64,000 bases of DNA from an uncultured Candidatus Saccharibacteria bacterium. Its GTDB lineage: Bacteria > Patescibacteriota > Minisyncoccia > Phycocordibacterales > UBA918. The stretch's first letter is position 1; the number at the start of each line of letters is the position of its first letter. Both the position numbers and the translations under genes were made by a program. The notes below the pieces were generated by a model. It worked only from the letters and a program-made list of their open reading frames with translations. It searched no databases and was not told the DNA's origin. Positions 4,454-56,024 of this stretch are shown here, piece by piece. Location of the stretch: positions 1,784 to 65,783 of the forward strand of contig CAYMIV010000002.1 in the NCBI GenBank assembly GCA_964390945.1, read 5' to 3'.

Positions 4454-4745
4454 GAATAGTTCAAGATTGGAGAACTTCTGATTCTAGTGTTACACGATGG
4501 GGTTTTAAGTCAATGTGCATGTGTTGCGTGACAGATTTTCCTTTAGAAAATCGAAGTGCTCTTGTGGCGAAAGGTGTACTGCTCCCGTAGGGAGAATCGA
4601 AACCTGACGGTCACTAAGATTTTCGCCGAATGGCGAATCTCTAAGTGCCGCGGGTCACGCCTCGCGTGTTCGTAAACTCACATCGCTCCGGCGGTTTCGA
4701 TTACCCCACACCGTGCGCAGGCACGGTGTTCCCACCCGCACACAA

Positions 4746-4770
4746 AAAGACCCTTTCGGGTCTTTTTGTC
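4746..4770. terminator. hairpin downstream of the minus-strand tRNA-Gly; also the centre of a longer inverted repeat
   Basis: aaaagaccctttcgggtcttttt; flanking sequences cccacccgcacac / gtgcgggcggggg extend the inverted repeat. Confidence 0.5.
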
Positions 4771-4773
4771 TTG

Positions 4774-6491: not shown

Positions 6492-7852
6492 TTTGTTGCA
6501 CCCTGTATTTCTTCTGTTGGCAGCATGGCGGAGTTCACCTCTTCTTCGGGCACTGCCTCTGTTGTCGTACCTGGTGTTTCGACATCTGCCGGGATGTCGT
6601 TCGGCAGTTGTGATTCAGAGAGTGGGGCGGTCTGCGTGAGTAGGTCAAGATCATGAGCAAGCGCCATTGCCTGCGCAATTGTTGCCTCTGCCCCATCGAT
6701 ATCATTGGCAGCGAAAGAGGTTGTTGCGCTGTTGATAAGCACTGAGAGTTCCGTCATGCCGAGCAAAACCTTTTCTGCAATTTCCACCCCCTCAAGAAGT
6801 GCGAGTCGCCCCGTGATAAGCGTACTTGTCGCAATAAGTGAGTCGAGGTTCATCTTTGCCGATGCGGCACGTTCTTCGATGGTAGGAATGATAGGAACGA
6901 GCGTTTCAAGTGCAACTGATTCACGAACATCGATATCAGTCATGAATACGATGAGTTTCTGAACAAGGCCGAGCGCACCCATAAGTTCTGACACAGCAGC
7001 GGATTCGTCGGTGGTGCGTGTATTTTCCGCTTCGAGAATAAGGCGGTCGATGTCTGCGAGGCGGCGAGTCATGTCGCCCTGCTCTTCTTGCGTAGCAATC
7101 TTTTTTACCACCTCGAGGAGTTCGTAGGCGCGCGTGGTCTCAAGTTCGATACGTGCCGAAAGACCATCATACGAAGGCGCAGTCGGGTCTTGGTTTTCAG
7201 CAACCCGTTCTCGGGCAGTGTTGACCACATCGATGATTTCGGCAACAGCCGCTTGAGATTCTTCTGTTGATCCGGTATCAAGTACCGCAGATTGTACTTC
7301 TAGCGCCGAACCGAGTGTGACCTGGGCAATTGCAGCCTCTTCCGCATTATTCGTCCGGAGCTCGGCGATACCATTCTGTGCGGCATCTGCGTGAATTTTA
7401 ACGGTTTCTGCAAGTTCGGCACTTACCTCTTTTGTGAGTTTTCCTTCTTCCGCAAGAAGTCGTGCCTCCGAAATTCGCCGTTCCATGAGTTTGGTTTCGA
7501 ACACAACTTTTTCATAGGGAGAATTTGCAAACTGGGATTGGATTTCTTCGTTCACACCAGTTTTTACGGCATAGAGAACGTCTCCCGGAACGGATTGTTC
7601 TGCGACAAAGGGAATGATGATGAAGACTATTGACGCGAGGACGCCGGCTGCAATGCGAACCGGGAGCGAATTGAATGGCAATATGAAAAAGTACGGTGAA
7701 TGAATCGATTCGGCGGGTATTGATTCCGCTTTTTTCGGAAGCGGATGATATTCCATATACGACAAAACGCGCTCACGAAGTTCACGCCGTTCAAGCGCCC
7801 GCAATCGGACTTTTTCTGCATATTTTTGTAAATCAGTTTCGAAAGATTTCAT
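6455..7852 (-). CDS. membrane-anchored anti-sigma-like protein (DUF5667-like helical ectodomain)
   Basis: Immediately downstream of the ECF sigma gene; cytoplasmic N-terminus, single TM (IAAGVLASIVFIIIPFV), long helical Ala/Glu-rich extracytoplasmic domain. Confidence 0.5.
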   Translation of the reverse strand: MKSFETDLQKYAEKVRLRALERRELRERVLSYMEYHPLPKKAESIPAESIHSPYFFILPFNSLPVRIAAGVLASIVFIIIPFVAEQSVPGDVLYAVKTGVNEEIQSQFANSPYEKVVFETKLMERRISEARLLAEEGKLTKEVSAELAETVKIHADAAQNGIAELRTNNAEEAAIAQVTLGSALEVQSAVLDTGSTEESQAAVAEIIDVVNTARERVAENQDPTAPSYDGLSARIELETTRAYELLEVVKKIATQEEQGDMTRRLADIDRLILEAENTRTTDESAAVSELMGALGLVQKLIVFMTDIDVRESVALETLVPIIPTIEERAASAKMNLDSLIATSTLITGRLALLEGVEIAEKVLLGMTELSVLINSATTSFAANDIDGAEATIAQAMALAHDLDLLTQTAPLSESQLPNDIPADVETPGTTTEAVPEEEVNSAMLPTEEIQGATNKNVLLTIPAAS

Positions 7853-9442: not shown

Positions 9443-9493
9443 AATTAAACACTAGTCCCCCGCCAAGGTCGGGCCATTGGTTTTGCGAGGTTA

Positions 9494-9520
9494 ATATTTG
9501 GTGTTTGTCGGGGAGCCGGG
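9494..9520. repeat. partial duplicate of the tRNA-Pro 3' end plus downstream flank (direct repeat with 9648..9676)
   Basis: atatttggtgtttgtcggggagccggg versus atatttttggtgtttgtcggggagccggg at the real tRNA. Confidence 0.8.
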
Positions 9521-9647
9521 TGAGACAGTCCGCGCGGACTGTCGCAAGACCTTGAGCAGTTGCTGCGAAAGGTGTACAGCGACTGTAAGGCGGCGAACTT
9601 TGTTCGATTCCCTTTTCAAACATCAAAAACATTCAACGCGAGGCCGA
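9521..9647. repeat. 127-bp insert bracketed by the tRNA-Pro 3'-end direct repeats; shares the repeat module with 10726..10812 and 4564..4603
   Basis: Starts tgaga, then hairpin cagtccgcgcggactg, then cgcaagaccttgagca...gcgaaaggtgtac; the same blocks recur at the tRNA-Gly(GCC) locus. Confidence 0.5.
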
Positions 9648-9663
9648 ATATTTTTGGTGTTTG

Positions 9664-9734
9664 TCGGGGAGCCGGGAATCGAACCCGGACCTCATGGTCC
9701 CAAACCATGAACACTACCACTATGCTACACCCCG
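9664..9734 (-). tRNA. tRNA-Pro(UGG)
   Basis: Manual cloverleaf: acceptor CGGGGTG/CTCCCCG (one T-T mismatch at 6:67), anticodon stem CATGG/CCATG with loop TTTGGGA (anticodon UGG), T-arm CCGGG-TTCGATT-CCCGG. Confidence 0.72.
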
Positions 9735-9884
9735 AATTTTGCCAGAGCATATTAACACATAGCAGCATATTTCCATAAATATTATTCACAATAGTAAGAT
9801 TGCGTGGTTTGTGGTGACAAACTGTATAGAGAGAAGAACTATTCAAAAAATATATTGGGTTTGATTATGATGTTTCACATGAAA

Positions 9885-10283
9885 CTAATCAATAATAATA
9901 TTTTCAATAATTTTGACTCTTGCATACTTTTCACGTGAAACAATTTTTACAGCAATGACATCAATTTGAAATTTGCCATTATAATTGCTTGAAGTTAACC
10001 AGGTTTCAATAACCCTTGCAATTCGACACAGTTTATCATTTCGAACCTTGTCTTCAGGGCGCCACGTTTCATGTGAAACCGCATACTCAAGATCAGACAT
10101 CGTTTCATATGAAACAGATTTAACTTCAACAAAATGAACCACGTCGCCTAATAGCGAAATAATATCGATTTCACCCCATTTTTTGAAATAATTTCTTTCA
10201 ACTATTTTGTGCCTCCTTGAAACAAGCCATTTTGCAGCGATATCTTCACCAATTTTGCCGATAATTTTATTGTCGGTCATCAA
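9885..10283 (-). CDS. YraN/UPF0102-like endonuclease-fold protein (PD-(D/E)xK-like)
   Basis: Core GEDIAAKWLVSRRHKIVERNYFKKWGEIDIISL...VHFVEVKS resembles the UPF0102/YraN family; it carries an internal insertion with repeated VS[RHY]E[KT] motifs. Confidence 0.5.
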   Translation of the reverse strand: MMTDNKIIGKIGEDIAAKWLVSRRHKIVERNYFKKWGEIDIISLLGDVVHFVEVKSVSYETMSDLEYAVSHETWRPEDKVRNDKLCRIARVIETWLTSSNYNGKFQIDVIAVKIVSREKYARVKIIENIIID

Positions 10284-10707
10284 GATATTATATCATTCGA
10301 TTAAAATTACTGGCGTGGCGTTTCACGTGAAACGTTACTTTCCAAATATGACGTGTGCACAACTAATTTTTACCCATATTTTAAGCCGTATAGTTAAGGA
10401 CATTCAGTGTTTATGTCTATGTCCTTTATACACATATTAAGGTGTTTGTTCACAGTTCGATGGTGGTTTTGTGAATGTGCTATTTCGCCAAACTTTAGTT
10501 ATGGTTCAGGATATTGGACCAGGCGTACATTCCAGGAGAATTCTATTTAACTCCTTTTGAGGTTTAAATTCGCGTGAATTTTGTATTTGATGTGCATTTT
10601 GAATCTAAGGCTCACACAGCGATTTTGATGCTTTCGGCGTGGCGAAGGATGGGGCATCGCCCCGATTCACATAAGCGAAACGACCTGAAAACATGTTCAG
10701 GTCGTTT

Positions 10708-10812
10708 CGTTTTGTGCGGCCAGGGTGAGAAGCAATCAATATTGCTTCGCAAGACCTTGAGCATGAATATGCGAAAGGTGTACTGCTCCCGTAGGGAGAA
10801 TCGAAACTTACA
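10708..10812. repeat. partial tRNA-Gly(GCC) 3'-end copy plus the shared repeat module
   Basis: ttttgtgcggccaggg, then tgaga, hairpin agcaatcaatattgcttc, cgcaagaccttgagca, gcgaaaggtgtactgctcccgtagggagaatcgaaac (the last block is identical to 4564..4603). Confidence 0.55.
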
Positions 10813-10881
10813 GTTTCAGTGCAGGTTGTCGCTATTTTCTGCAAAATAGCTGTCAACCTTTTCGATTCTCCAGCCCAAAAG

Positions 10882-10917
10882 GAAAGTACCAGATGTAAAA
10901 ACTGGTACTTTCTTTTT
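10882..10917. terminator. terminator hairpin downstream of the minus-strand tRNA-Gly(GCC)
   Basis: gaaagtaccag-atgtaaaaa-ctggtactttc followed by ttttt. Confidence 0.65.
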
Positions 10918-10918
10918 G

Positions 10919-10989
10919 TGCGGCCAGGGAGAATCGAACTCCCGACTAATCCTTGGCAAGGACTCGTTATACCACTTAACCATGGCCGC
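10919..10989 (-). tRNA. tRNA-Gly(GCC)
   Basis: Acceptor GCGGCCA/TGGCCGC, anticodon stem AGTCC/GGATT with loop TTGCCAA (anticodon GCC), T-arm GGGAG-TTCGATT-CTCCC, discriminator A. Confidence 0.85.
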
Positions 10990-11057: not shown

Positions 11058-11345
11058 TTATTCGGGGCGATTGTGGTTCATGAGATCCTGGAGCGTGAAA
11101 ATGCCGGCAAAACTAAGGCACATTTGAATCGCAGCGAGATGGCGGTTCGCCTTCCCACACTGCGTTTCTACGTTGATATTCTTGAAGTTTTCAACAAGAT
11201 ACCTGGCGTGTGAAAGAATTTCCTGTTTAGTGCACGACTCAAATGTTCTTGACGGGTCTATTCGTCTTGGTTCAACGCCATATTCGATGAGGCTGAAGAA
11301 CTGCTCGTATTTCGCGAGAATTGACAATATTTTAGCCGATGTCAT
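11058..11345 (-). CDS. hypothetical protein
   Basis: 95-aa ORF between two tRNAs; no recognisable domain. Confidence 0.3.
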   Translation of the reverse strand: MTSAKILSILAKYEQFFSLIEYGVEPRRIDPSRTFESCTKQEILSHARYLVENFKNINVETQCGKANRHLAAIQMCLSFAGIFTLQDLMNHNRPE

Positions 11346-11617
11346 GGAAATCTCCTCGGTGTTCCACGTGCAACACTACTTGAAGGAGCGGGGAAGTGCA
11401 AGGTGCACATATCCAAATGTGGTCACAAATCACTAGGTATCTTTGTTCGCTTCACTCCAAACATACTAAGTGTTCTCGACCCCACCTCGACATTTTTCTT
11501 TCTTTATTGAAAGAAAAATAAGCCTGCGTTTGAACACGCGTACGCAAGTGAAGCATTTCACTTGCTAGACTCAAAAACCATGCTTTCTTAAAAGAAAGGT
11601 TTTTGAGTCTACGCGTG

Positions 11618-34858: not shown

Positions 34859-36385
34859 ATGGCCATCGCCCGTGTTCACGCCGCTCAACCATCCGTACTC
34901 GGTGGAGATATCGTCACAATTGAAGCAGACCTCTCGCGAGGTCTGTATTCGTTTGCGGTTGTCGGTCTTCCGGGGAAGGCGGTCGAAGAGGCGAAGGATC
35001 GTGTCTCGAGTGCAATTAAAAATTCCGGATTCAATTCACCGAAAAGTGAAAATCAGAGGGTTGTCATCTCGCTCGCACCCGCAGACTTGAAAAAAGAGGG
35101 ACCGCTCTTCGACCTTCCAATCGCTCTGTCGTATCTTCTTGCAAAAGGAGAAGTTCATGGAAAAACGGAAAATCGAGTCTTCGTCGGAGAGCTTGCGCTT
35201 GATGGAACGCTTCGCCCAGTGCGGGGAATTCTTCCTGTTGTGCAAGAGGCGGCACGTCGTGGATTTGAGGAAGTTATAGTTCCCCTCGAGAACGCAGAGG
35301 AGTCGGCACTCATTCCAAACATCATTTCGATTCCAGCGCGCTCTCTCATGGAGGTTGTGAAACACATTGATTCCTCGCGAGACGATCACCAAACCATCCC
35401 GGCACAACCGCCAACCCAAATCGCAACCGTCTGGAGCGAGGAGGGTGTGAGATTTGAAGATATTCGCGGGCAAGAAACTGCAAAGCGCGGTCTCATGATT
35501 GCAGCGGCGGGGAGACACAACCTCATCATGGTTGGTCCTCCGGGGACCGGAAAAACAATGCTCGCGCGGGCATTCCAAAGCATCCTACCGCCGCTTTCCA
35601 CAAAAGAGGCGCTCGAGGTGACGGCGATACACTCGGTTGCAGGAACGGGTGAGGGTATTACGAGTAGGCCGCCATTTCGAGCGCCGCATCACACCGCATC
35701 ACATACCTCACTCGTGGGTGGCGGTACACACCCAAAACCCGGCGAGGTTACCCTCGCACATCGTGGTGTGTTGTTTCTCGATGAGTTTCCGGAATTTGAG
35801 AGAAGAAGTATTGATGCACTGCGGCAACCTCTCGAGGATAAGGTAGTTTCAATTTCCCGCGTACATTCTTCGGCGCTCTTTCCTGCAGATTTTGTGCTCG
35901 TCGCCGCAATGAATCCAACGCGCGGAGGAGATGATGGTGGCGACTATGCTTCCCAGATGCTCACAACATACAAACAGAAAATATCAGGCCCAATTCTTGA
36001 CCGGATTGATCTATGGCTTCCTGTTCCGCACATTGATTTCGAAACGCTCACGCGCCTTCGTGAGTCGACTGTTACCGGTCGAAAAACCGAAACGACTGTG
36101 GTGCGCGAACGAATTCTTGAAGCGAGGGAACGACAGCGCGAGCGCCTCAAGGGTCTCGGTATTCAAACGAACGGGGAAATGTCAGCTCGTGACATTGAAG
36201 AACGCATCGAATTATCAGAGTACGTTCGGTCACTGCTCAAAAATTCCGCTGAAAAATTGCACCTCTCGCCGAGAAGTTATCATCGGCTCATCAAGGTTGC
36301 ACGTACGATTGCCGATCTCGATGAATCAGCAGAGATGACGACCGACCACGTACTTGAGGCACTCCAGTACCGAGTGAAGATGTAG
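34859..36385 (+). CDS. comM: YifB/ComM-family Mg-chelatase-like AAA+ ATPase
   Basis: Lon-protease-like N-terminal domain and AAA+ core with Walker A GPPGTGKTMLA and Walker B LFLDEFPEF. Confidence 0.85.
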   Translation: MAIARVHAAQPSVLGGDIVTIEADLSRGLYSFAVVGLPGKAVEEAKDRVSSAIKNSGFNSPKSENQRVVISLAPADLKKEGPLFDLPIALSYLLAKGEVHGKTENRVFVGELALDGTLRPVRGILPVVQEAARRGFEEVIVPLENAEESALIPNIISIPARSLMEVVKHIDSSRDDHQTIPAQPPTQIATVWSEEGVRFEDIRGQETAKRGLMIAAAGRHNLIMVGPPGTGKTMLARAFQSILPPLSTKEALEVTAIHSVAGTGEGITSRPPFRAPHHTASHTSLVGGGTHPKPGEVTLAHRGVLFLDEFPEFERRSIDALRQPLEDKVVSISRVHSSALFPADFVLVAAMNPTRGGDDGGDYASQMLTTYKQKISGPILDRIDLWLPVPHIDFETLTRLRESTVTGRKTETTVVRERILEARERQRERLKGLGIQTNGEMSARDIEERIELSEYVRSLLKNSAEKLHLSPRSYHRLIKVARTIADLDESAEMTTDHVLEALQYRVKM

Positions 36386-41724: not shown

Positions 41725-44058
41725 ATGTCTCTGGCGCAATATAAAACCTTTGGAAAATTGTTCATTACAGGCATTCTTTCGTGTATTCTTTTACTTTCCG
41801 CATATACGCCTTTTCTCTTTCCGACACAGGTTGCTCATGCAATCCCCGTTGAAATAACAACCGATTTTTCCCTTGCGGGTCTCGGGACGTGGGCGGAGTC
41901 GATACTCACTACCGCAAACACGCTCATGCTTCGCTTCAAGGAAATGATACTCGACCCCGGCGTCTGGTTGTTAACCACAATCATCCTACAAAAACTATCG
42001 CAACAGATTATCAGTTGGATAAATTCCGGCTTTAATGGAAGTCCCGCGTTCGTCAGTGATTTTGGCGGATTTCTTCGCGACATTGCTGACAGAACCGCTG
42101 GTGAATTCATATTCGGTGGTGATTTAGGTTTTCTCTGCTCCCCGTTCAAACTCAACGTACAGTTGGCGCTCGATATCCAATATCAGCGGAGCCGGAATAC
42201 GGATTTTAAATTTGATTCCCAGTGTACGCTTTCCGGTGTTGTGTCGAATATTCAAAACTTCATGGATGGTGATTTCTTTGCGGGGGGTTGGGATGGCTGG
42301 TTTGAGATGACCCAACGCGCACAGAATAATCCGTATGGTGCGCTCGTCCTTGCGCAGGAGCAACTCGCACTGCGGGTTGCAAACACCAAGCAACGGGAGA
42401 CCAAACTGCTTGATTTCAGCAAGGGATTTTTCAGCCAGCGGCACTGTGAGAGCGGGGGGCCAGGCGACCCCCCCACATGCTGGACGGTCACACCGGGAAG
42501 TGCGATTGAGAATCAACTTAATAGCGCCCTCGATATTCCTATGGGACGACTGACTATTGCAGACGAGTTTGATGAGATTCTTGCAGCGCTGTTTGCCTAT
42601 CTTGTTCCAACCATGCTTAACGGCGCAGGCGGTCTTCTTGGACTCACGAATGGTTCGTATGGGGGAAGCAGCGGGACATACTACACACAGCTTGCAAACG
42701 CTTCGACAACTTCCTCTGCACAGTGCGGAGCGGCATCAATTGGAAGTTACACAAGTGCACCAACCACCGACCTTTGCACCTATGGGGCTCCGTCGCCCGT
42801 GTCAGGATCGGGTCCGTGGACATGGACCTGCACCACTCCGCAGGGATCTGTTTCATGTACTGCAAACACCCAGTCTGGAGTACTGCCTCCGGGTGGAGGC
42901 GGTGGGGGGGGAGGGGCACAAGATTTTTGTTCACAATACAGCGATGTTATGGAGAACACCGCCACATGGGGAGACTATTCACGTCAACTTACCGGGCCAT
43001 GGCGTACTGGTATTCTCGTATATGAATTCACTGTGCCGCAAACATTCGCAACATACTCGGGGGTCGGTTACACATCAATGGCGGAGTACCAGGGTCCGCC
43101 CCAATTGCGCCGCATGACACTTTCTCGGAGTAAGTGTGACTTCAGACCAACAGATCCGACTGGTGTAAACGGACCGTTTGAGGTCAGCACTGGGATGCAA
43201 ACGACCATATACTGGAACGTTGGAGTTGCACCGCACTCGCTTATACCAGGAGAAACCTACTACATGAATTTTGCCAACGTCGACCCGGCTACCTCGGGAA
43301 TAAGTGACTGTCCACAAAGTGCCTGCAATGCCGGATATAGCACCATATGGCCAAGCGGAGGTAGTGGTAGTGGAGGAGGCGGGGGGGGAGGTGGGGGAAC
43401 GCCGGGAAACGGTGTGTGTGGTACAGCTCAGGGTGGTTTGTACTCAAGCGCACCAACAACAAATCTCTGTTTGTCGGGCACCGCATCTCTGCCGGTACTT
43501 AACTCCACAAGCCAGTGGTTGTGGTCGTGTGGATCCGGAACCAACATAGTTACCTGCACAGCAAACAATCCCGCAGGAACCCCTTCGATATCTACAAACA
43601 TCACTTCATACGTCGCAAATCATCTTCCAATCACCTATAACAATGTGAATCCTGCAACCATGTCGTTACGAACATGGAATATCACAACCGGCGGAGTCCA
43701 CACCACAGCTCTTCCGGGGTGGTCAGGAACCAATTTTGACGTCACATACCCCTCGGGTTTCTTTGTTGCAGGAAACAGTGTCGAGATCTCCATTATAAAT
43801 ACTTCAAGTAGTGCGCGGGTCGGTAACCTTGTGAGTTTCATTATACCAAGTGGCGGTGGCGGGGGGGGAGGTGGGGGTGGCGGTGGAAGTCCTGCAATCC
43901 CCGCGTTTCCGTGGACGGTGATGGGAGTACAGTACGCCTCACAGGCACAATTTGATGCTGCGGTTGTTGCAAACACCTTCATGGGGCAGGCTGTCAGAAT
44001 AAACGGCGTCACGGTACTCTCGGGATTCGGACCGGGAATTGACGGGACATCACCATAA
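41725..44058 (+). CDS. large secreted surface protein with Gly-runs and duplicated 4-Cys modules
   Basis: Signal peptide. Two copies of the module CG.A..G.Y[ST]SAPTT[DN]LC...W.W.C....V.CTAN, each after a poly-Gly linker (GGGGGGGG, GGSGSGGGGGGGGG, GGGGGGGGGGGGG). Three poly-G(8) nucleotide tracts lie in the coding sequence. Confidence 0.5.
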   Translation: MSLAQYKTFGKLFITGILSCILLLSAYTPFLFPTQVAHAIPVEITTDFSLAGLGTWAESILTTANTLMLRFKEMILDPGVWLLTTIILQKLSQQIISWINSGFNGSPAFVSDFGGFLRDIADRTAGEFIFGGDLGFLCSPFKLNVQLALDIQYQRSRNTDFKFDSQCTLSGVVSNIQNFMDGDFFAGGWDGWFEMTQRAQNNPYGALVLAQEQLALRVANTKQRETKLLDFSKGFFSQRHCESGGPGDPPTCWTVTPGSAIENQLNSALDIPMGRLTIADEFDEILAALFAYLVPTMLNGAGGLLGLTNGSYGGSSGTYYTQLANASTTSSAQCGAASIGSYTSAPTTDLCTYGAPSPVSGSGPWTWTCTTPQGSVSCTANTQSGVLPPGGGGGGGGAQDFCSQYSDVMENTATWGDYSRQLTGPWRTGILVYEFTVPQTFATYSGVGYTSMAEYQGPPQLRRMTLSRSKCDFRPTDPTGVNGPFEVSTGMQTTIYWNVGVAPHSLIPGETYYMNFANVDPATSGISDCPQSACNAGYSTIWPSGGSGSGGGGGGGGGTPGNGVCGTAQGGLYSSAPTTNLCLSGTASLPVLNSTSQWLWSCGSGTNIVTCTANNPAGTPSISTNITSYVANHLPITYNNVNPATMSLRTWNITTGGVHTTALPGWSGTNFDVTYPSGFFVAGNSVEISIINTSSSARVGNLVSFIIPSGGGGGGGGGGGGSPAIPAFPWTVMGVQYASQAQFDAAVVANTFMGQAVRINGVTVLSGFGPGIDGTSP
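42904..42911 (+). repeat. poly-G(8) homopolymer inside the surface-protein CDS
   Basis: gggggggg encodes part of a Gly run; candidate slipped-strand site. Confidence 0.8.
43381..43388 (+). repeat. poly-G(8) homopolymer inside the surface-protein CDS
   Basis: gggggggg. Confidence 0.8.
43861..43868 (+). repeat. poly-G(8) homopolymer inside the surface-protein CDS
   Basis: gggggggg. Confidence 0.8.
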
Positions 44059-44063
44059 AAACC

Positions 44064-46028
44064 ATGCGACGCCCCTTTGACAACAAAATACAAATTGGAT
44101 TGCGGAATGCGGTTTTGGCGTTTCTTCTTGTTGGGGGCGTGCTGATCTCTCTGGGCGCAGCACAATCAGCCTGGGCAGATACTGTCGGTGATGCAGACAT
44201 AAAACCACCCACAAACGGGGTATCAAACACAACCTCATACGGCAACCTCATTGGCTACGTATTACTCACACCCGCCGCCGGCATCACCTGGCTTGGCGGG
44301 AAGGCGCTCGAGGTGAGCGTGGAGAAGTTGGTGCTTGGGATGAAAAATATATACGACGGGGGGCTTGGTTACACAGTGGAAACGGTTTGGAAAATCGTCC
44401 GCGACCTCTGCAATCTTGCATTTATATTCGGCTTCATCTATCTCGGCATTCGCACCATCTTTGATTCTGAGAGCGCCAACGTGAAGCGTATGCTCGCCTC
44501 CATCATTATCGGGGCACTCCTTATCAACTTCAGTCTCTTCTTTGCGAAGTTCATCATTGACGTCGGGAACGTATTTGCGGTCAACATCATGACCACCCTG
44601 AGCATTGACGGGTCGAGCTTGACCTACCAGATTGCTGACACGCTTGGTCTCACCACGATTTATAATCCGAAGCAGAGCGGTGCAATCCTGGGGAATCTAA
44701 CTGCCGGTGCCAATATCACGTTCTTTGTGATGGCGGCGATATTTCTTCTCGTTGCCGCATTTGTGATGTTTGCGGGGGCATTTCTCCTCATGATACGGTT
44801 TGTTGCGCTCGTTTTTATTATGATTTTTTCGCCTGTTCTTTTTGGGGCGACGGTGTTTCCACAAACCCAGCGCTACGCGAGTATGCTTTGGTCTAAACTC
44901 ATCAGTTACTCGTTCTTCGCGCCGGCCTACCTCTTTTTGCTCTATGTATCGCTCGCCGTTTTAAACGGCATCATGACATCCTTTGGTAAAGGCAAGCTGG
45001 CGGATGCACTGCAGGGAACCGCAGGCAGCGCACCGACATCGGGGATGTTTGATGTGGTTCTTCTCTTTGTCATCTGTATTCTATTCCTCATCTACTCGCT
45101 CAAGATTGCACAGCAGCTGAGCGTCTTTGGTGCCGACAGGGCGATATCACTCACAAAACAATGGAGCGGAAGAGCGACAGCAGGACTTGCGGCTGCGGCG
45201 GGGCGCGCAACCATTGGAAAATATGCGCACTCTATGTCCGAGGATGAACGTCTGAAAGATCGCGCGAGCCAAAAGGGCGTACGTGGTTTTGTTGCTCGAC
45301 AACAACTTAAGGCGAGCCGCGTTGTAGGTGATAGTTCGTTTGATGCCCGGAACACCGCCGCCGGCAAAGCATTGGGTTTTGAGGGCAGAAAGGGCGGATA
45401 TACAACGATGAAAAAGGAAGTTGAGGAGAGGGAAACTAAATTTGCTCGATCGCTAGGTGAAATAAAGGATGATGATGTTGAGGTACAGGCACGAAAGAAG
45501 GAGTTTTCTTTCGAACAATCTCGTCTTCGAACACTGGAAGAGGAATTGAATAGAATTGATAAAAATGACGTTGGGGCTCGTGTGGCAAAACGTGATGAAA
45601 TTGAGAAGCAAAAAGAGTTAATACAGAACTCACAGGTTGCGTTCGAAAGAGAAAAGCAGCGAAGAATCGTCGGGAGCACGTATTCAAAACCAAATCCCGG
45701 TGATGCTGCACTAATAAAAAAACAAAAGGACGATATTAAAACACTGATGAATGATATTAAAACGGAGTGGGATGTATACGTTCGGTTGCCTGATGTGGCA
45801 AAGGAGGGCCATCGCTCTGTGATACAAACCTTAAAAACCCAACTCGACAATCTCCAGTCAAAGCACGCTGAACTCCTCAAGAATCAGCCAGACCGTGGCT
45901 ATGCTGGTGTGCTTGAGAGTAGTAAGCGCATAACTGCTTGGCCAAAGGGTCGTATGGTAACACACGAAAGGGAGGCGGGCAGGGCGATACGAAAAACTGC
46001 CGAGAAGGGATTACCGAAAGAAAAATAA
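44064..46028 (+). CDS. VirB6/TrbL-like polytopic membrane protein with a C-terminal coiled-coil (T4SS-like)
   Basis: Signal-like N-terminus, about six TM helices in the TrbL/VirB6 arrangement, long charged coiled-coil tail. Confidence 0.5.
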   Translation: MRRPFDNKIQIGLRNAVLAFLLVGGVLISLGAAQSAWADTVGDADIKPPTNGVSNTTSYGNLIGYVLLTPAAGITWLGGKALEVSVEKLVLGMKNIYDGGLGYTVETVWKIVRDLCNLAFIFGFIYLGIRTIFDSESANVKRMLASIIIGALLINFSLFFAKFIIDVGNVFAVNIMTTLSIDGSSLTYQIADTLGLTTIYNPKQSGAILGNLTAGANITFFVMAAIFLLVAAFVMFAGAFLLMIRFVALVFIMIFSPVLFGATVFPQTQRYASMLWSKLISYSFFAPAYLFLLYVSLAVLNGIMTSFGKGKLADALQGTAGSAPTSGMFDVVLLFVICILFLIYSLKIAQQLSVFGADRAISLTKQWSGRATAGLAAAAGRATIGKYAHSMSEDERLKDRASQKGVRGFVARQQLKASRVVGDSSFDARNTAAGKALGFEGRKGGYTTMKKEVEERETKFARSLGEIKDDDVEVQARKKEFSFEQSRLRTLEEELNRIDKNDVGARVAKRDEIEKQKELIQNSQVAFEREKQRRIVGSTYSKPNPGDAALIKKQKDDIKTLMNDIKTEWDVYVRLPDVAKEGHRSVIQTLKTQLDNLQSKHAELLKNQPDRGYAGVLESSKRITAWPKGRMVTHEREAGRAIRKTAEKGLPKEK

Positions 46029-46047
46029 TTCACATTAGGCAATTTCT

Positions 46048-46635
46048 ATGGAAATAACACGTGAAGAGGCACAGAAGATGTTGGCAATGCGACTTGATCA
46101 GTATCCTGAAACAAAGGCGCTCGTCAACTCACCCTCTTTTAAGAACAATCTTGCGCAGATTGCTGAGTTTTTTCAGGTTGATTCTGCCCTTTTGCCAATT
46201 ATTGAAAACGAGGTGCTGGTCGTTTTGTGTTTCTACGCTCCACTTACGGAGCTCGCACAAAATATCAGCGAGAGTACCGGGTTGCCGGTGAACCTTTGCG
46301 AAAACATCGCAACAATGCTTAATGCTCTTGTTTTTTCTCCTGTGCATGACGACCTCGCTGCCTTTGAATTATTGTGGGAGGAGGAACTTAAGAAAACCAC
46401 AACCGTCCCCGATGCAAATTCCGACCTCAAAGAGCGGCTCGATTTGAGACCCCAGAACGCTTCCGCTCCGTGGGGAGCATCACAACCCCCCAAACCCCTC
46501 ACCCGTGAAGAACTCATGAGCGCCCTTGCGCCGAAGCGCACCATGACAAGCGACATTGAAGCGATGCGTGCAAAGACCGGGGGTGCAAGTATTGTCGAAC
46601 CGCCGCCGCCACCCGCATCGCCCTCACCACAGTGA
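46048..46635 (+). CDS. hypothetical protein (Pro-rich C-terminus)
   Basis: 195 aa ending PPPPASPSPQ; no domain recognised. Confidence 0.3.
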   Translation: MEITREEAQKMLAMRLDQYPETKALVNSPSFKNNLAQIAEFFQVDSALLPIIENEVLVVLCFYAPLTELAQNISESTGLPVNLCENIATMLNALVFSPVHDDLAAFELLWEEELKKTTTVPDANSDLKERLDLRPQNASAPWGASQPPKPLTREELMSALAPKRTMTSDIEAMRAKTGGASIVEPPPPPASPSPQ

Positions 46636-46718
46636 CATGAGCCGCCCGAGAAGGTGGCTCGTGTGTTTTCCGCACGGGGAAGCGGCTCGTATGTGTTGTT
46701 GGTGTACAATAGCGTTAT

Positions 46719-47117
46719 ATGCGCTTTGAGGTGCCGCAATTTATTGAAGTTGAAGATAAAATCGTCGGTCCTTTGACATGGCGTCAATTTGTGTATCTTG
46801 CAGGCGGTGCCGGAACTGTCATCATCCTGTTCTTTTTACTGCCTTTTTTAATCGCGGCAGTTCTCTCAATTCCGTTTGTCGCCCTCGCGGGATTTCTCGC
46901 CTTCCACCAGGTGAACAACAGACCGTTTTCGTTTTTTCTTGAGGCGTTTTTTAATTATTTCACGAAAAGCCGCCTCTATCTCTGGAAGAAAGATGTCGCA
47001 CAAACAATCGTGACAAAGCGCGAGGCGCCCGTGTCTGTGGCACCGAAAGTCATTCCCGGGAAAACAAACCTTTCTGCACTCTCGACGAGGTTGGAACTTA
47101 ACAACATTCAAAAATAG
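46719..47117 (+). CDS. VirB3/PrgI-like small two-TM protein
   Basis: 132 aa with two adjacent TM helices immediately upstream of VirB4, the typical VirB3 position and topology. Confidence 0.4.
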   Translation: MRFEVPQFIEVEDKIVGPLTWRQFVYLAGGAGTVIILFFLLPFLIAAVLSIPFVALAGFLAFHQVNNRPFSFFLEAFFNYFTKSRLYLWKKDVAQTIVTKREAPVSVAPKVIPGKTNLSALSTRLELNNIQK

Positions 47118-47118
47118 C

Positions 47119-47748
47119 ATGGATACGAACGTACCTTCCCAACAATTTCTTCCCATTCAGGATGTCCGCGACGGTATTGCGGTGCTTGAGAACGGGCAAA
47201 TGTGCATCGTGCTCCTTGCCACCTCCATCAACTTTGCGCTCAAGTCGACTGATGAGCAGGAGGCGATACTCTCCCAATTTCAGACATTTCTGAATACGCT
47301 CGATTTCTCGCTTCAGTTTTATATTCAATCCAGACGGCTCGATATCCGACCCTACATGGAAATCCTCCGCGCGCAGGAAGTCCACCAATATAATGACCTC
47401 ATGAAAGTCCAGCTCCGCGAGTACATGGAGTTTATTCGCGCGTTCACCGAAGAAGTCGACATTATGTCGAAAAATTTCTTTGTGGTAATCCCTTATACGC
47501 CCACCGCTTCCGTTGATACCTCGCAGCTCAAGAAGGTGCTCAATTTCGGAGAAAAGAAACAGAGTCCCGAGATTGACCCGGCGAAGTTTGTCGAACACAG
47601 AAGCCAACTTGAACAGCGAGTCACGGTTGTCGAGCAGGGGCTCGCGCGCATCGGTATTCGCACCGCGCCGCTCGGCACTGATGAGCTCATCGAACTCTAT
47701 TATCACATCTTTAATCCGCAGGACATGTCGTCTGCACCGAAGCGATAG
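47119..47748 (+). CDS. VirB4/TrbE/CagE-family ATPase, N-terminal domain (upstream of an in-frame TAG)
   Basis: The 209 aa resemble the VirB4 N-terminal domain; the ORF ends at TAG 47746-47748 and the same frame continues at 47752. Confidence 0.6.
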   Translation: MDTNVPSQQFLPIQDVRDGIAVLENGQMCIVLLATSINFALKSTDEQEAILSQFQTFLNTLDFSLQFYIQSRRLDIRPYMEILRAQEVHQYNDLMKVQLREYMEFIRAFTEEVDIMSKNFFVVIPYTPTASVDTSQLKKVLNFGEKKQSPEIDPAKFVEHRSQLEQRVTVVEQGLARIGIRTAPLGTDELIELYYHIFNPQDMSSAPKR

Positions 47749-47751
47749 CGT

Positions 47752-49551: not shown

Positions 49552-49569
49552 TCATCTCAACACTACGCT

Positions 49570-50427
49570 ATGCGGGAGCGTGAAAATGACGAATACACAG
49601 ACGAGGAAGGGGTGCGAAATGCTGCCGAATATTCGGATTTTACCAGTGTGCCAGAGGACGGACCGGACTTGCCCGCGAATGAATCAACCATTGAACGCAT
49701 CGATGCCACATACCGCTCACTCAACCGAGGCGCGTCTGGGAGAAGGAGCAACAGATATCGTTCTCCAGCAGCACGAAGGTTGGATGAGCGACCGGGGGTT
49801 GCAAAAGACGCCTACCGAAGGGTGCGCACGGTCCGCAATAACGCCAAAACAGAGGCTTCTCGCGTCTCTACATCAACCAATGTTCGTGACGCGGCACACA
49901 AACAATTCGCCACTCCACTGTCAAAATCCTCCGCCTTTCCTGGGGGTGGTTCGGCGGCTATAAAAACCACCGGGCGTGCCGCCGCTCGTTTTCTCATTAT
50001 GCCCGCCGTGTTTGCGTATGGTGCCCAACTCGTACTTGGACTTATAGCGTTTGGTTTGGTTGGGGTTCATGTGGTTATTCAAGAAATGACGAGCGGGGGA
50101 GGTGTTGTGGCAACGGTGACTGGTTGGTTGCTCGAGGCGGGGAAGACCGTCGTCGGTTGGTTTGCTGACATTCCCGGATTTGATGAGATGGGGATGTTTT
50201 TTTGGTTTTTCGCCTTTCTTGTTGCGCTTTGTGTATTTCTCGGATACATTCTCTTTTTTCATTTTATAGGAATTTCCTTTATGGATTCTGTGACCGCAAC
50301 AATCATTCTTTTTGTTTGTATTGTGCTCTGCTACGTGATTCCGATATTCCCCGGAGCCCTTATCTGGGTGGTATATGTTGTGGCGAAAGACACAGTGAAA
50401 AGTGCGCGGGAGATTGCGGGTGTGTGA
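49570..50427 (+). CDS. hypothetical polytopic membrane protein
   Basis: Arg/Ser-rich cytoplasmic N-terminus followed by about five TM helices. Confidence 0.35.
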   Translation: MRERENDEYTDEEGVRNAAEYSDFTSVPEDGPDLPANESTIERIDATYRSLNRGASGRRSNRYRSPAARRLDERPGVAKDAYRRVRTVRNNAKTEASRVSTSTNVRDAAHKQFATPLSKSSAFPGGGSAAIKTTGRAAARFLIMPAVFAYGAQLVLGLIAFGLVGVHVVIQEMTSGGGVVATVTGWLLEAGKTVVGWFADIPGFDEMGMFFWFFAFLVALCVFLGYILFFHFIGISFMDSVTATIILFVCIVLCYVIPIFPGALIWVVYVVAKDTVKSAREIAGV

Positions 50428-53983: not shown

Positions 53984-53993
53984 AGTGGTGATT

Positions 53994-54305
53994 TTATGAT
54001 TGTGAGACGAGGTTGGTAATGTGGGCGCGCAGTTCCGGTGGGGTAAGTGTGTTGATTGGTTTTTTCAGTATAAAAATATATACGCCGTTTTTTATTCCTG
54101 TTGTTCGTATTGTGTTGTATATTCGCCGGCGTGCTCTGTTTCGTTCAGCCGCAAGTTTTACGATTTTTTTTGGTATTACCACAGCGCAATGCAGTTTTGG
54201 GTGTTGTGAGTAAACACAATAGAGGTGTGGTGCGTGCGTGCGTCTCCCTGACGAAAAAAAACGATTGAACACCTCTCTCGTCAATCGTTCTTTTTTCTTC
54301 ATCAT
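53994..54305 (-). CDS. rnpA: RNase P protein component
   Basis: Basic ~103-aa protein with the RnpA-like motif, sitting between rpmH and yidC. Confidence 0.75.
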   Translation of the reverse strand: MMKKKERLTREVFNRFFSSGRRTHAPHLYCVYSQHPKLHCAVVIPKKIVKLAAERNRARRRIYNTIRTTGIKNGVYIFILKKPINTLTPPELRAHITNLVSQS

Positions 54306-54320
54306 GGGTATAGTCTACGA

Positions 54321-54458
54321 CTATACACTAAGTTTTGCACGGCCTTTTTTGCGCCGCGCTTTGAGAACTTTTTTTCCTTTTTTTGTTGCGGAGCGCACAA
54401 GATACCCGTGTGTTGTCGCTCGCTTCTTCTTTTTTGGTTGGTATGTTTGTTTGGACAT
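54321..54458 (-). CDS. rpmH: 50S ribosomal protein L34
   Basis: [45 protein letters not shown], 45 aa. The reported ORF is a spurious 5' extension, so the start is reset to the ATG at 54458. Confidence 0.9.
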
Positions 54459-54635
54459 GTTGTTTGTCTGATTTCGCCACTCTACACTACATGGAAAACA
54501 AAAGCAATCTTTTTTTGTTCTCCACACGTTGTACACAGTGGTTGTGCAGGTTTGTTTTTTATATGGCGAATAATCAACTATATTTACACTTTTCCACAGG
54601 TCGGTATAATGTCTGTCATTACATTTGTTTTTCAG

Positions 54636-56024
54636 ATGAACACTATGAGTTATCTCCCAAACACATCGACAAGTATTGTTCAAACGGAACAAATTGATGT
54701 TAAAAAACTTTGGGATGATGCGCTTGTTAATATCGAACTCTCGATAACACCAGCAAACTTTAAGACGTGGTTTCGGGACACCTATATTCTCTCCCTTGAA
54801 GACGGCACTGTTTCACTTGCTGTTCCGAGTGTTTTTGTCCGGGATTGGGTCAGTGATAAGTTTCAGGCCCTTATTTTAAAGACGCTTCGTGATTTAACCC
54901 CGCATGTAAGGAGTATTGAGTATGCGGTTGTGCAGAGAAGCGATAGAAAAATAGAATCCTCAAAAAAACAAACAGTGAATGCGGCTCTTCCTCTCGAAGA
55001 GTATTACATAAACAAGAGCGACAATTTGAACCCAAAGTATGTATTTGAAACTTTTGTTGTCGGTCCTTTTAATGAGTTGTCTCATGCGGCGGCAAAAACT
55101 GTTGTTCTAAAGCCGGGTATTGCATACAACCCCCTCTTTATATATGGAAAGACTGGGCATGGAAAAACCCACCTTATTCAAGCGGTTGGGAATCAGTTGA
55201 AACGCGTTGGGAAGAAGGTATTCTATGTGACGAGTGAGCGTTTTGCGGTTGATTATATGAATTCTCTCCAGAGTGGAACGGCGAATAATTTTAAGGATAA
55301 ATATCGCCAATATGATGTTTTGATTATGGACGACGTACAGTTTCTTGCAAATAAAGAAAAAACACAAGAAGAACTCTTCCATCTTTTTAATGCAATGCAC
55401 GACAACAACAAACAAATTGTTTTCTCGAGCGATGTACATCCTGCGCTTATGTTAAATATGGAAGAGCGCCTGCGTTCTCGTTTTTCACAAGGAATGATCG
55501 TTGATATCCCGTCCCCTGATACGGAGTCGCGTGGGGCTATTTTAAAGTCAAAAGCCGCCCAAAACGGCATAACCTTATCAAATGATGTTGTTGACCATCT
55601 TTCTGGAGTAATAGAGGGAAATATTCGAGAGCTTGAGGGTGCTTTAAATACCATTCTCTGTCAATCACAACTCCTTGGTAGGACACTCACACTCGATGAG
55701 GTGAAGGTTCTTATTAAAAATAGTACACGGCCGAGAAAATCTCTCGCTGTTTCCGATGTTGTTGACAAAATCGCCCGTTTTTATGATGTTGAACCAGCGA
55801 GTATTTATGAAAAAACAAGGAGGAAGGAGGTTGTAAAACCCCGTCAGCTCATTATGTACATTCTCCGTGAAGATTTTCAAGTTTCATACCCTGCTATCGG
55901 TCAAAAATTGGGTGGTCGTGACCACACTACAGTTATTCACTCGTGTGAAAAAATAAAGCGGGAACTTATTGGCGACACAGACCTCGAGGATGAGGTTTCC
56001 CAAATACGCACACTCCTTAAGTAA
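54636..56024 (+). CDS. dnaA: chromosomal replication initiator DnaA
   Basis: AAA+ Walker [11 protein letters not shown] and the C-terminal DNA-binding domain. The start is reset to the ATG at 54636; a TATAAT box at 54604-54609 argues against the upstream in-frame ATG at 54609. Confidence 0.9.

What the first reader, a model, noticed from the sequence alone, without database searches (positions are those of the whole stretch)
9866..10340. Five copies of a 14-bp palindrome GTTTCA(C/T)(A/G)TGAAAC within and around a YraN-like nuclease gene
The palindrome occurs at 10320-10333 (37 bp upstream of the start, an operator-like position), at 10102-10115, 10066-10079 and 9928-9941 inside the coding sequence, and at 9872-9885 abutting the stop codon. 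The three internal copies each encode a VS[YHR]E[TK] pentapeptide within an insertion that canonical YraN/UPF0102 proteins lack. Five copies of a 14-mer palindrome in 470 bp is far beyond chance. Candidate explanations are autoregulatory operator sites, recognition sites for the encoded PD-(D/E)xK-like nuclease, or recombination hotspots. The gene sits between tRNA-Pro and tRNA-Gly in a scarred tRNA cluster.
Basis: seen in the sequence. Interest (0 to 1): 0.6.

Follow-up and report, generated by a model that had tools for sequence, protein, structure and literature searches.

The report
parS centromere array inside yraN
The repeated palindrome is the standard bacterial chromosome "centromere" sequence (parS, the loading site for the segregation protein ParB), here packed as an array into and around one small nuclease gene, an arrangement conserved across many Patescibacteria.

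Summary
There are four exact GTTTCAYRTGAAAC copies and one copy with a single mismatch within 9872-10333, against 0.01 expected. They lie in and around a 131-aa YraN/UPF0102 gene between tRNA-Pro and tRNA-Gly.

The 14-mer is the core of the canonical chromosomal parS site, tGTTNCACGTGAAACa.

In 78 related Patescibacteria loci the same array surrounds the orthologous gene:
- Each locus has 3-10 sites within about 0.8 kb, and almost none beyond 1.5 kb.
- VSYET is encoded by exactly GTTTCATATGAAAC in 71 of 74 loci (2.6% expected). VPRE uses CCA 48/49 and CGT 54/54. Equally conserved residues elsewhere in the gene use all synonymous codons.
- Non-coding copies give the logo tGTT(T/C)CA(C/t)(G/a)TG(A/G)AACa. 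The two half-sites vary independently, which indicates protein binding rather than a hairpin.

The array lies 44 kb from yidC-dnaA-dnaN. comM, the gene for YraN's helicase partner, carries no site.

The main gap is that no ParB gene was found in the DNA available. ParA and ParB are reported in one cultivated Saccharibacteria species.

Verdict: a new member of a known kind, with an unusual dual-coding layout.

The parts
10320..10333 (.). parS site 1. GTTTCACGTGAAAC is a perfect match to the 14-bp parS core. It is non-coding and lies 36-39 nt upstream of the yraN start.
   Evidence: The consensus comes from PMC7022226 Table 1 and 10.1101/724823. An upstream site is present in 72 of 78 related loci.
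10102..10115 (.). parS site 2. GTTTCATATGAAAC has a TA centre and is read as V-S-Y-E-T of YraN.
   Evidence: A site is present at this position in 78 of 78 loci. The exact 14-mer occurs in 71 of 74 VSYET loci against 2.6% expected.
10066..10079 (.). parS site 3. GTTTCACATGAAAC on the gene strand is read as V-S-H-E-T, 36 bp from site 2.
   Evidence: A site is present at this position in 67 of 78 loci. Codons there are constrained: GTT 28 of 29 Val codons, CAT 30/30, GAA 21/21.
9928..9941 (.). parS site 4, with one mismatch. GTTTCACGTGAAAA on the gene strand is read as V-S-R-E-K. Most orthologs have GTTCCACGTGAAAA (V-P-R-E-K).
   Evidence: A site is present at this position in 58 of 78 loci. Codons: CCA 48/49, CGT 54/54, GAA 53/55.
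9872..9885 (.). parS site 5. In GTTTCACATGAAAC the last base, 9885, is part of the TAG stop codon of yraN.
   Evidence: A site overlaps or abuts the stop codon in 28 of 78 loci, and a further downstream site is present in 53 of 78.
11361..11374 (.). Possible outlying degenerate site. GTTCCACGTGCAAC lies 1 kb away, beyond tRNA-Gly and 16 bp upstream of a 95-aa ORF with no Pfam family.
   Evidence: It matches the relaxed pattern GTTNCAYRTGNAAC. Pfam found no family for the ORF. Its membership of the array is uncertain.
9885..10283 (-). yraN-like gene (UPF0102, PD-(D/E)xK nuclease), 131 aa from the ATG at 10280. It hosts three in-frame parS sites.
   Evidence: The AlphaFold model has pLDDT 81.
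9663..9734 (-). tRNA-Pro (tgg), the conserved flank of the array.
   Evidence: The synteny tRNA-Gly(gcc) - yraN - tRNA-Pro(tgg) is seen in 13 of the 20 related loci scanned; tRNA-Pro is present in 18 of them.
10918..10989 (-). tRNA-Gly (gcc), the conserved flank of the array.
54408..56024 (+). Context: dnaA, with divergent yidC (53234-53983, minus strand) and dnaN (56276-57364). This is the presumed origin region, 44 kb from the array.
   Evidence: Bac_DnaA at 206 bits, three DNA_pol3_beta domains, and 60KD_IMP.
34859..36385 (+). Context: comM-type helicase gene (Mg_chelatase/ChlI), the known partner of YraN. No parS-like site lies near it.

Best explanation
The five palindromes are chromosomal parS sites. 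parS is the centromere-like sequence on which ParB dimers load as CTP-dependent clamps. From there ParB spreads, recruits SMC and, with ParA, segregates the origin region.

In this Patescibacteria lineage the sites form one compact array of 5-6 sites in 0.5-1.5 kb (3-10 in relatives), built into and around the small yraN gene. Three sites sit inside the coding sequence in the only frame that yields V-[S/P/T]-x-[E/G]-T/K. The centromere sequence therefore fixes both the codons and the amino acids of three YraN motifs. In many relatives it also contains the start or stop codon.

Shown here: sequence identity to parS, clustering, DNA-level purifying selection across about 78 genomes, and proximity to dnaA.

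Inferred, not shown: ParB binding and centromere function. YraN itself is most likely the ordinary ComM-partnered transformation D-loop nuclease, and only a passive host of the sites.
For: 1. Sequence identity. GTTTCACGTGAAAC (10320-10333) equals the 14-bp parS core used in the Caulobacter ParB-DNA co-crystal (10.1101/724823). It also equals the consensus TGTTNCACGTGAAACA, and GTTTCACGTGAAAC for M. smegmatis (PMC7022226 Table 1).

2. Logo. 276 non-coding copies from 78 loci give tGTT(T62/C26)CA(C67/T33)(G67/A33)TG(A62/G26)AACa. The outer T and A are each at 53%, and the variable position 4 shows T or C, as in known parS sites.

3. Clustering. The relaxed pattern with at most 1 mismatch gives 697 sites in 78 loci against 6 in shuffled sequence. 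Density is 1.6-1.9 sites per 200 bp across the gene and close to 0 beyond 1.5 kb. The same holds in a 20-kb related locus.

4. Selection on DNA rather than protein. VSYET is encoded by the exact 14-mer in 71 of 74 loci against 2.6% expected (binomial 8e-109). VPRE uses CCA 48/49, CGT 54/54 and GAA 53/55. The equally conserved WRPE and GEIDI motifs in the same gene use 6 Arg codons, 4 Pro codons and both Glu codons.

5. Amino-acid variation follows parS degeneracy. S/P/T (TCA/CCA/ACA) varies at parS position 4, and E/G (GAA/GGA) at position 11.

6. Independent half-sites. Positions 4 and 11 vary independently (TA 105, CA 62, TG 32, CG 18). This fits protein recognition of two half-sites, not a hairpin.

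7. Location. The array is 44 kb from yidC-dnaA-dnaN.

8. ParB in the phylum. ParA and ParB exist and are scored growth-defective/essential in a cultivated member of the phylum, S. epibionticum (SEML1_0183/0184).

9. Precedent. B. subtilis Spo0J carries the peptide VPRET. My recalled sequence matched PDB chains 6sdk (identical over residues 21-218) and 5noc (residues 216-282, 129 bits). That the parS site known inside spo0J encodes this peptide is from memory, not tested.
Against: - No ParB or Soj homolog was found in the 64-kb window or in about 508 kb of related loci, about 572 kb in all. I searched by phmmer with a verified B. subtilis Spo0J and a Soj sequence recalled from memory (not verified), and with motif regexes. 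ParB in this class was therefore not shown.
- The most conserved site has a TA centre instead of the canonical CG, and two sites have CA. ParB binding to those variants is untested.
- oriC itself was not mapped. Cumulative GC skew peaks at dnaA rather than troughing, and DnaA boxes do not cluster there.
- parS arrays are usually linked to parAB. Exclusive linkage to yraN across this large group of Patescibacteria is unusual and could hide a functional tie to YraN.
- The loci were retrieved through the peptide patterns EVK[TS]VSYET and H[EG]TWRPE[ED]. The amino-acid motif was therefore pre-selected, although the codons were not.
Confidence: 0.8

Rival explanations
1. The palindromes are cis elements of YraN itself. 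They would be autoregulatory operators bound by YraN, or recognition or cleavage sites of this subfamily's nuclease.
For: The array is linked to yraN in all 78 loci. One site sits just upstream of the promoter region, and others overlap the start or stop codon. The subfamily has its own motifs. No ParB gene was seen in the DNA at hand.
Against: - The sequence is identical to the ParB site, including its known degeneracy.
- Characterised YraN proteins cut ssDNA with little sequence or structure specificity (10.1101/2024.02.06.579203).
- Sites also lie in neighbouring ATP-citrate-lyase, deformylase and CCA-enzyme genes.
- The subfamily motifs are explained by the DNA constraint itself. In the model they fall at strand ends and turns, not on an obvious extra DNA-binding module.
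Confidence: 0.07
2. The palindromes are operators of another transcription factor, for example a competence or DNA-repair regulon that includes yraN.
For: YraN is a natural-transformation gene, and Patescibacteria are naturally competent (PMC10633639). A palindrome near a promoter is typical of an operator.
Against: - comM, the gene for YraN's helicase partner (34859-36385), has no site, and neither does any other part of the window between 11.4 and 57 kb.
- 5-9 sites per gene, most of them inside or downstream of the coding sequence, is not operator-like.
- The identity to parS is a simpler explanation.
Confidence: 0.05
3. The palindromes act as nucleic-acid hairpins. They could be terminators, RNA-processing signals, or cruciform or recombination hotspots responsible for the rearranged tRNA neighbourhood.
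For: The sites are palindromes. One abuts the stop codon. The orientation of tRNA-Pro relative to yraN differs among loci.
Against: - The hairpin has only a 5-bp stem and -2.3 kcal/mol, and no terminator-like site was found.
- Positions 4 and 11 do not covary: the mismatching CA and TG combinations (94) outnumber the compensated CG combination (18).
- Sites lie upstream of the promoter and on either strand of neighbouring genes.
Confidence: 0.03
4. The palindromes are DNA uptake sequences of a naturally competent lineage, enriched in a genome-maintenance gene.
For: The phylum is competent. In Neisseria, uptake sequences are biased towards genome-maintenance genes (from memory).
Against: Uptake sequences occur about once per kb across the whole genome. 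Here all the good copies in 64 kb lie within 0.5 kb, and density falls to zero within 1.5 kb in 78 loci.
Confidence: 0.02

Closest known systems
Chromosomal parS/ParB (Spo0J) centromere sites, consensus TGTTNCACGTGAAACA (B. subtilis, Caulobacter, M. smegmatis and others)
   Same: - The same 14-16-bp palindrome, including the T/C tolerance at position 4.
- Several copies clustered near dnaA.
- Copies tolerated inside coding sequences.
   Different: - The array is centred on yraN between tRNA genes, not on parAB.
- It is very dense, with 5-9 sites in under 1 kb.
- Three sites lie in one frame of one small gene, and in relatives the start or stop codon lies inside a site.
- TA and CA centres are common.
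- The cognate ParB was not identified here.
Multi-site parS arrays of Myxococcus xanthus (22 sites) and Streptomyces coelicolor (21 sites) (PMC7022226 Table 1)
   Same: Many parS copies are concentrated in one origin-proximal zone.
   Different: As far as I recall, those arrays spread over several kb or more (from memory). They are not embedded as dual-coding elements in a single conserved gene.
The parS site inside B. subtilis spo0J (Lin and Grossman 1998, from memory)
   Same: A parS site read in the same frame as V-P-R-E-T. The peptide is present in Spo0J, which makes it a direct precedent for V[SP]xE[TK].
   Different: It is a single site in the gene of the binding protein itself. Here there are three sites in an unrelated nuclease gene, conserved across a wide range of Patescibacteria.
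YraN/UPF0102-ComM transformation D-loop resolution system (Hardy et al., bioRxiv 10.1101/2024.02.06.579203)
   Same: The host gene is a UPF0102 protein with the D...E-x-K motif, and a comM-type gene lies 25 kb away.
   Different: That work concerns the protein. It reports little sequence specificity for YraN and does not involve parS.

Membership tests
Chromosomal parS (ParB loading site) | A 14-16-bp palindrome matching tGTTNCACGTGAAACa | tested here: met
   10320-10333 is a 14/14 match. The other four copies differ only at the centre (Y/R) or by one outer base. The logo of 276 non-coding copies reproduces the consensus, including the flanking T and A.
Chromosomal parS (ParB loading site) | Few copies per genome, clustered and rare elsewhere | tested here: met
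   In the window, 5 copies lie in 462 bp. In the other 63.5 kb there are three more matches to the relaxed pattern with at most 1 mismatch (6903, 11361, 57023). Across 78 loci the sites are confined to about 1.5 kb either side of the gene. Whole genomes were not available.
Chromosomal parS (ParB loading site) | Origin-proximal location | tested here: inconclusive
   The array is 44 kb from yidC-dnaA-dnaN, which is 4-7% of a 0.6-1.0 Mb genome. However, oriC was not mapped, GC skew peaks there, and DnaA boxes do not cluster.
Chromosomal parS (ParB loading site) | A cognate ParB (PF02195 plus HTH) encoded in the genome | tested here: inconclusive
   None was found in the window or in the related loci (about 572 kb in all; the probe was verified). 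The rest of these genomes could not be read. ParA and ParB are present and important in S. epibionticum.
Chromosomal parS (ParB loading site) | Sequence conserved at the DNA level independently of coding | tested here: met
   71 of 74 exact palindromes at VSYET against 2.6% expected. CGT 54/54 and CCA 48/49. Control motifs in the same gene use all synonymous codons.
Chromosomal parS (ParB loading site) | ParB binding and spreading in vitro or in vivo | not testable with these tools
   This needs EMSA, ChIP-seq or a CTP-dependent clamp assay.
YraN / UPF0102 | Pfam PF02021 above the gathering score, with the PD-(D/E)xK catalytic residues | tested here: met
   63.9 bits against 23.6. D40, E53 and K55 are invariant in 25 sequences. 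The model has the layout of helices and strands expected for this fold, at pLDDT 81.
YraN / UPF0102 | Co-occurrence with the ComM helicase | tested here: met
   34859-36385 carries ChlI, Mg_chelatase and Mg_chelatase_C. The partnership comes from Hardy et al..
Promoter operator of an autoregulator | Sites confined to the promoter region of the regulated gene | tested here: not met
   Most sites are intragenic, downstream or in neighbouring genes.
DNA uptake sequence | High, genome-wide density of about one site per kb | tested here: not met
Intrinsic terminator or structured RNA | A stable hairpin with compensatory changes | tested here: not met
   The hairpin is only -2.3 kcal/mol. There are no terminator-like sites, no covariation between positions 4 and 11, and no Rfam family.

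The most novel reading that the evidence does not exclude
The strict linkage, across a wide range of Patescibacteria, between the parS array and yraN may not be a historical accident. It may reflect functional coupling. Examples would be ParB occupancy gating expression of the transformation nuclease (in many relatives the start codon lies inside a site), YraN acting at the ParB/SMC loading zone, or, in lineages without ParB, the YraN-like protein itself being the site-binding factor.
Probability: 0.12. Interest if true: 0.75.

Novelty: new member of a known kind. Interest (0 to 1): 0.4.

Why it matters
- It locates the probable chromosome centromere of a large, mostly uncultivated bacterial radiation. 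I found no paper in the searched library that mentions parS or ParB in this context.
- The array is a compact marker conserved in all 78 related loci examined, flanked by tRNA-Gly and tRNA-Pro in most loci checked. It could help orient and check MAG assemblies, guide Hi-C or ChIP work, and supply a native partition cassette for genetic tools in Patescibacteria.
- It is a clean natural example of a DNA-binding site dictating protein sequence. Three peptide motifs of a nuclease, and their permitted substitutions (S/P/T and E/G), track the degeneracy of the centromere site.
- As a caution for annotation, 'family-specific motifs' such as VSYET may be imposed by overlapping DNA signals rather than by protein function.

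Tried and rejected
- **ParB/ParA search.** I used motif regexes and phmmer with B. subtilis Spo0J and a Soj sequence recalled from memory against all ORFs of at least 60 aa in the window plus 84 loci. Nothing was found. The Spo0J probe was later verified against PDB 6sdk and 5noc.
- **Pfam scan of window ORFs.** About 30 ORFs were scanned, and none contained a ParB domain.
- **Extending the source contig.** I tried look-up of encoding contigs with DnaN, ClpP and P0001. Only short Logan contigs came back, or no record at all.
- **Literature.** Searches for parS or ParB in Patescibacteria or Parcubacteria found no relevant paper. The only support was a supplement row for S. epibionticum ParA/ParB. 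Livny et al. 2007 is not held.
- **RNA-based readings.** Rfam at gathering and at E-value thresholds found no family at the sites. The terminator scan found none. The hairpin energy is negligible.
- **DnaA boxes.** A scan for boxes to map oriC showed no convincing cluster at dnaA.
- **ParB protein-database search.** I ran no further search on this. Only the best 120 hits are listed, and they would be close relatives of whatever non-Patescibacteria query I could supply.
- **Rejected readings.** DNA uptake sequence, restriction site, CRISPR-like repeat and REP element were all rejected on distribution and sequence.

Full report
**1. Observation**

The pattern GTTTCAYRTGAAAC occurs exactly four times in the 64-kb window, at 9872, 10066, 10102 and 10320. 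The expectation is 0.01, and none of 100 shuffles reached 4. The copy at 9928-9941 has one mismatch; on the gene strand it reads GTTTCACGTGAAAA.

The copies surround and fill an ORF at 9885..10283 on the minus strand. The gene caller's product is 131 aa and starts at the ATG at 10280 (P0001). It is a YraN/UPF0102 protein: PF02021 at 63.9 bits against a cutoff of 23.6, with weaker YraN NCBIfam matches and a match to PDB 3FOV.

The three internal copies share one reading frame and encode VSYET, VSHET and VSREK. The 9872 copy shares its last base with the TAG stop codon. tRNA-Pro(tgg) at 9663-9734 and tRNA-Gly(gcc) at 10918-10989 flank the gene.

**2. The motifs are not specific to this genome**

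The protein has more than 1300 relatives of about 131 aa, named where named as YraN of Kaiserbacteria or Patescibacteria. In an alignment of 25 of them (51-63% identity to the query), V57, S58, Y59 and T61 are invariant. E60, V69, H71 and T73 are nearly so, and most have V-P-R-E-K at the third position. The alignment to 3FOV shows only a 2-residue gap at VSYET, so 'an insertion that canonical YraN lacks' is only partly right.

**3. The decisive comparison**

I fetched 80 genomic loci encoding relatives. They come from Kaiserbacteria, Paceibacteria, Nomurabacteria, Parcubacteria and Minisyncoccia MAGs, with GC content of 34-54%.

- The exact 14-mer sits at the VSYET codons in almost every locus, with further copies upstream and downstream.
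- Codon counts show that this is selection on DNA. Of 74 loci encoding VSYET, 71 use exactly GTT TCA TAT GAA AC. Background codon usage predicts 2.6% (binomial 8e-109).
- The adjacent E-V-K codons vary freely: GAG 49 and GAA 29, with four Val codons in use.
- At the third motif, Pro is CCA in 48 of 49 loci, Arg is CGT in 54 of 54, and Glu is GAA in 53 of 55.
- The equally conserved WRPE and GEIDI motifs of the same gene use six Arg codons, four Pro codons and both Glu codons.

One caveat applies. The loci were retrieved through degenerate back-translations of EVK[TS]VSYET and H[EG]TWRPE[ED]. The peptide was therefore pre-selected, but the codons were not.

**4. Identity of the site**

GTTTCACGTGAAAC is the 14-bp core of the chromosomal parS site. 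A review gives the general consensus as TGTTNCACGTGAAACA and lists GTTTCACGTGAAAC for M. smegmatis (PMC7022226). The 20-mer GATGTTTCACGTGAAACATC, with 'the 14-bp parS site' underlined, was used for the Caulobacter ParB co-crystal (bioRxiv 10.1101/724823).

I scanned with the relaxed pattern GTTNCAYRTGNAAC, allowing at most one mismatch.

- The 78 loci hold 697 sites, against 6 in shuffled sequence.
- Density is 1.6-1.9 sites per 200 bp across the gene and its immediate flanks, and essentially zero beyond 1.5 kb.
- Each locus has 3-10 sites, with a mode of 7-9.
- The logo of the 276 copies outside the yraN coding sequence is tGTT(T62/C26)CA(C67/T33)(G67/A33)TG(A62/G26)AACa. The flanking T and A are each at 53%. 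This is the parS consensus, including its known variable position.
- Positions 4 and 11 vary independently (TA 105, CA 62, TG 32, CG 18). This is expected for a dimer reading two half-sites and not for a hairpin.
- The RNA hairpin is worth only -2.3 kcal/mol, and no terminator-like site is present.

**5. Anatomy across genomes**

| Position of site | Loci with a site (of 78) |
|---|---|
| Upstream of the gene | 72 |
| Overlapping the start codon (CAT ATG AAA C read as M-K) | 40 |
| VSYET | 78 |
| VSHET, 36 bp further | 67 |
| V[PS]RE[KT] | 58 |
| Overlapping or abutting the stop codon | 28 |
| Further downstream | 53 |

- In some genomes the array extends into neighbouring genes, at orthologous positions. 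These are ATP-citrate-lyase subunits and peptide deformylase and the CCA-adding enzyme.
- Only two reading frames of the palindrome are free of stop codons. Both are used: VSxET and F-H/L-V-K.
- Amino-acid variation in the motifs follows the degeneracy of parS. S/P/T (TCA/CCA/ACA) varies at parS position 4, and E/G (GAA/GGA) at position 11.
- In the AlphaFold model (pLDDT 81) the motifs fall at the end of the catalytic strand, at a helix end followed by a loop, and at a hairpin turn. These are places likely to tolerate an imposed sequence.

**6. Context in the window**

- yidC (minus strand), dnaA and dnaN lie at 53.2-57.4 kb, 44 kb from the array.
- A comM-type helicase gene lies at 34859-36385. 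YraN has recently been shown to be the ComM-partnered endonuclease that resolves the transformation D-loop. [quoted passage not shown]
- No parS-like site lies near comM or anywhere between 11.4 and 57 kb. This argues against a competence operator and against YraN recognising the sites.
- The synteny tRNA-Arg(tcg) - tRNA-Gly(gcc) - yraN - tRNA-Pro(tgg), with the CCA-adding enzyme, CorA and a sigma factor nearby, recurs in relatives. The array is therefore chromosomal and ancient.

**7. Mechanism**

Best supported, at a confidence of about 0.8: ParB dimers nucleate on these sites, close as CTP-dependent clamps, slide onto flanking DNA, load SMC and engage ParA to segregate the origin-proximal region. 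That mechanism is established knowledge of ParABS (PMC7022226). A dense array gives a high-capacity loading zone.

Shown here are sequence identity, clustering, DNA-level selection and proximity to dnaA. ParB binding and centromere function are inferred.

**8. Weak points**

- I found no ParB or Soj gene in the window or in the related loci, about 572 kb in all. The Spo0J probe was verified.
- The only direct support for ParAB in the phylum is the annotation and Tn-seq table for S. epibionticum (SEML1_0183/0184).
- The best-conserved site has a TA centre, and binding to that variant is untested.
- oriC is not mapped. GC skew peaks at dnaA rather than troughing, and DnaA boxes do not cluster there.

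**9. Comparison with what is known, and novelty**

This is parS, a known kind of element. What is new is where it lies and how it is packaged. It is a compact array built into a nuclease gene between tRNA genes, conserved across a wide range of Patescibacteria, rather than at parAB. The centromere sequence dictates three peptide motifs, and often the start or stop codon.

A precedent for the frame exists. B. subtilis Spo0J contains VPRET (sequence verified against PDB chains). That its internal parS encodes this peptide is from memory. I found no paper in the library linking parS or ParB to Patescibacteria or to yraN.

I rate it a new member of a known kind, with interest 0.4. The residual novel reading is functional coupling between the array and YraN, or YraN itself as the binder where ParB is absent. 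I put that at about 0.12.

Noticed in passing
window 9480-9662, 10690-10917, 4560-4772 (minus strand, just 3' of tRNA-Pro, tRNA-Gly(gcc) and tRNA-Gly(tcc)): A shared element of about 150-210 nt follows three tRNA genes. It contains GGAGAATCGAAA...TTTCGATTCTCCC, then a conserved core GTACACCTTTCGCA-loop-TGCTCAAGGTCTTGCGA-hairpin-TCTCA. After tRNA-Pro and tRNA-Gly(gcc) it ends with a copy of that tRNA's own 3' acceptor strand (9500-9520 equals 9657-9677; 10712-10724 equals 10917-10929). It looks like a duplicated tRNA 3' half interrupted by a structured insert. No Rfam family matches, even at E<=1.
   Followed up: partly
window 34859-36385 (+): A comM-type helicase gene (ChlI, Mg_chelatase and Mg_chelatase_C). 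ComM is the reported partner of YraN in transformation D-loop processing. It lies 25 kb from yraN and carries no parS-like site.
   Followed up: partly
window 53234-57364, and composition across 1-64000: yidC (minus strand), dnaA and dnaN are arranged as at a typical origin. Even so, cumulative GC skew peaks rather than troughs at about 56 kb, gene orientation converges there, GC content drops to 35% at 56-58 kb, and DnaA boxes do not cluster. The position of the origin is therefore uncertain.
   Followed up: partly
window 57023-57036 (inside dnaN) and 6903-6916: Isolated degenerate parS-like sequences: GTTTCACATGCAAC and GTTTCAAGTGCAAC. They may be weak sites, half-sites or chance matches.
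   Followed up: no
window 41725-50427 (+): A run of large genes on the + strand includes a TrbL/VirB6-like gene (44064-46028) and a TraG/VirB4-like ATPase gene (47752-49551). This is consistent with the type IV secretion system described for Patescibacteria. Several neighbouring ORFs have no Pfam family.
   Followed up: no
L043 3-2710, L042 1-2653, L053 2-2088, L073 2-2772: In some relatives, ATP-citrate-lyase-like subunit genes lie upstream of yraN (Pfam run on L043 only; the others by similar ORFs). They carry parS-like sites at orthologous positions, read as VS[RH]ET or F-[HL]-V-K. In these genomes the array spills over several kb.
   Followed up: partly
L001, L038, L043, L053 compared with L008, L013, L014, L028 and others: tRNA-Pro(tgg) downstream of yraN is on the same strand as yraN in some genomes and on the opposite strand in others. 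This implies repeated small inversions next to the palindrome array.
   Followed up: no
related loci, for example L029 2976-2989 and L005: In 40 of 78 loci a parS-like site is centred on the annotated start codon (GTTTCAT ATG AAA C, read as M-K-). ParB occupancy could therefore directly occlude translation or transcription initiation of yraN. In some loci my choice of start codon may have been drawn to the ATG inside the palindrome.
   Followed up: partly
window 11058-11345 (-): A 95-aa ORF with no Pfam family lies between tRNA-Gly and tRNA-Arg, with a parS-like GTTCCACGTGCAAC 16 bp upstream of its ATG.
   Followed up: no
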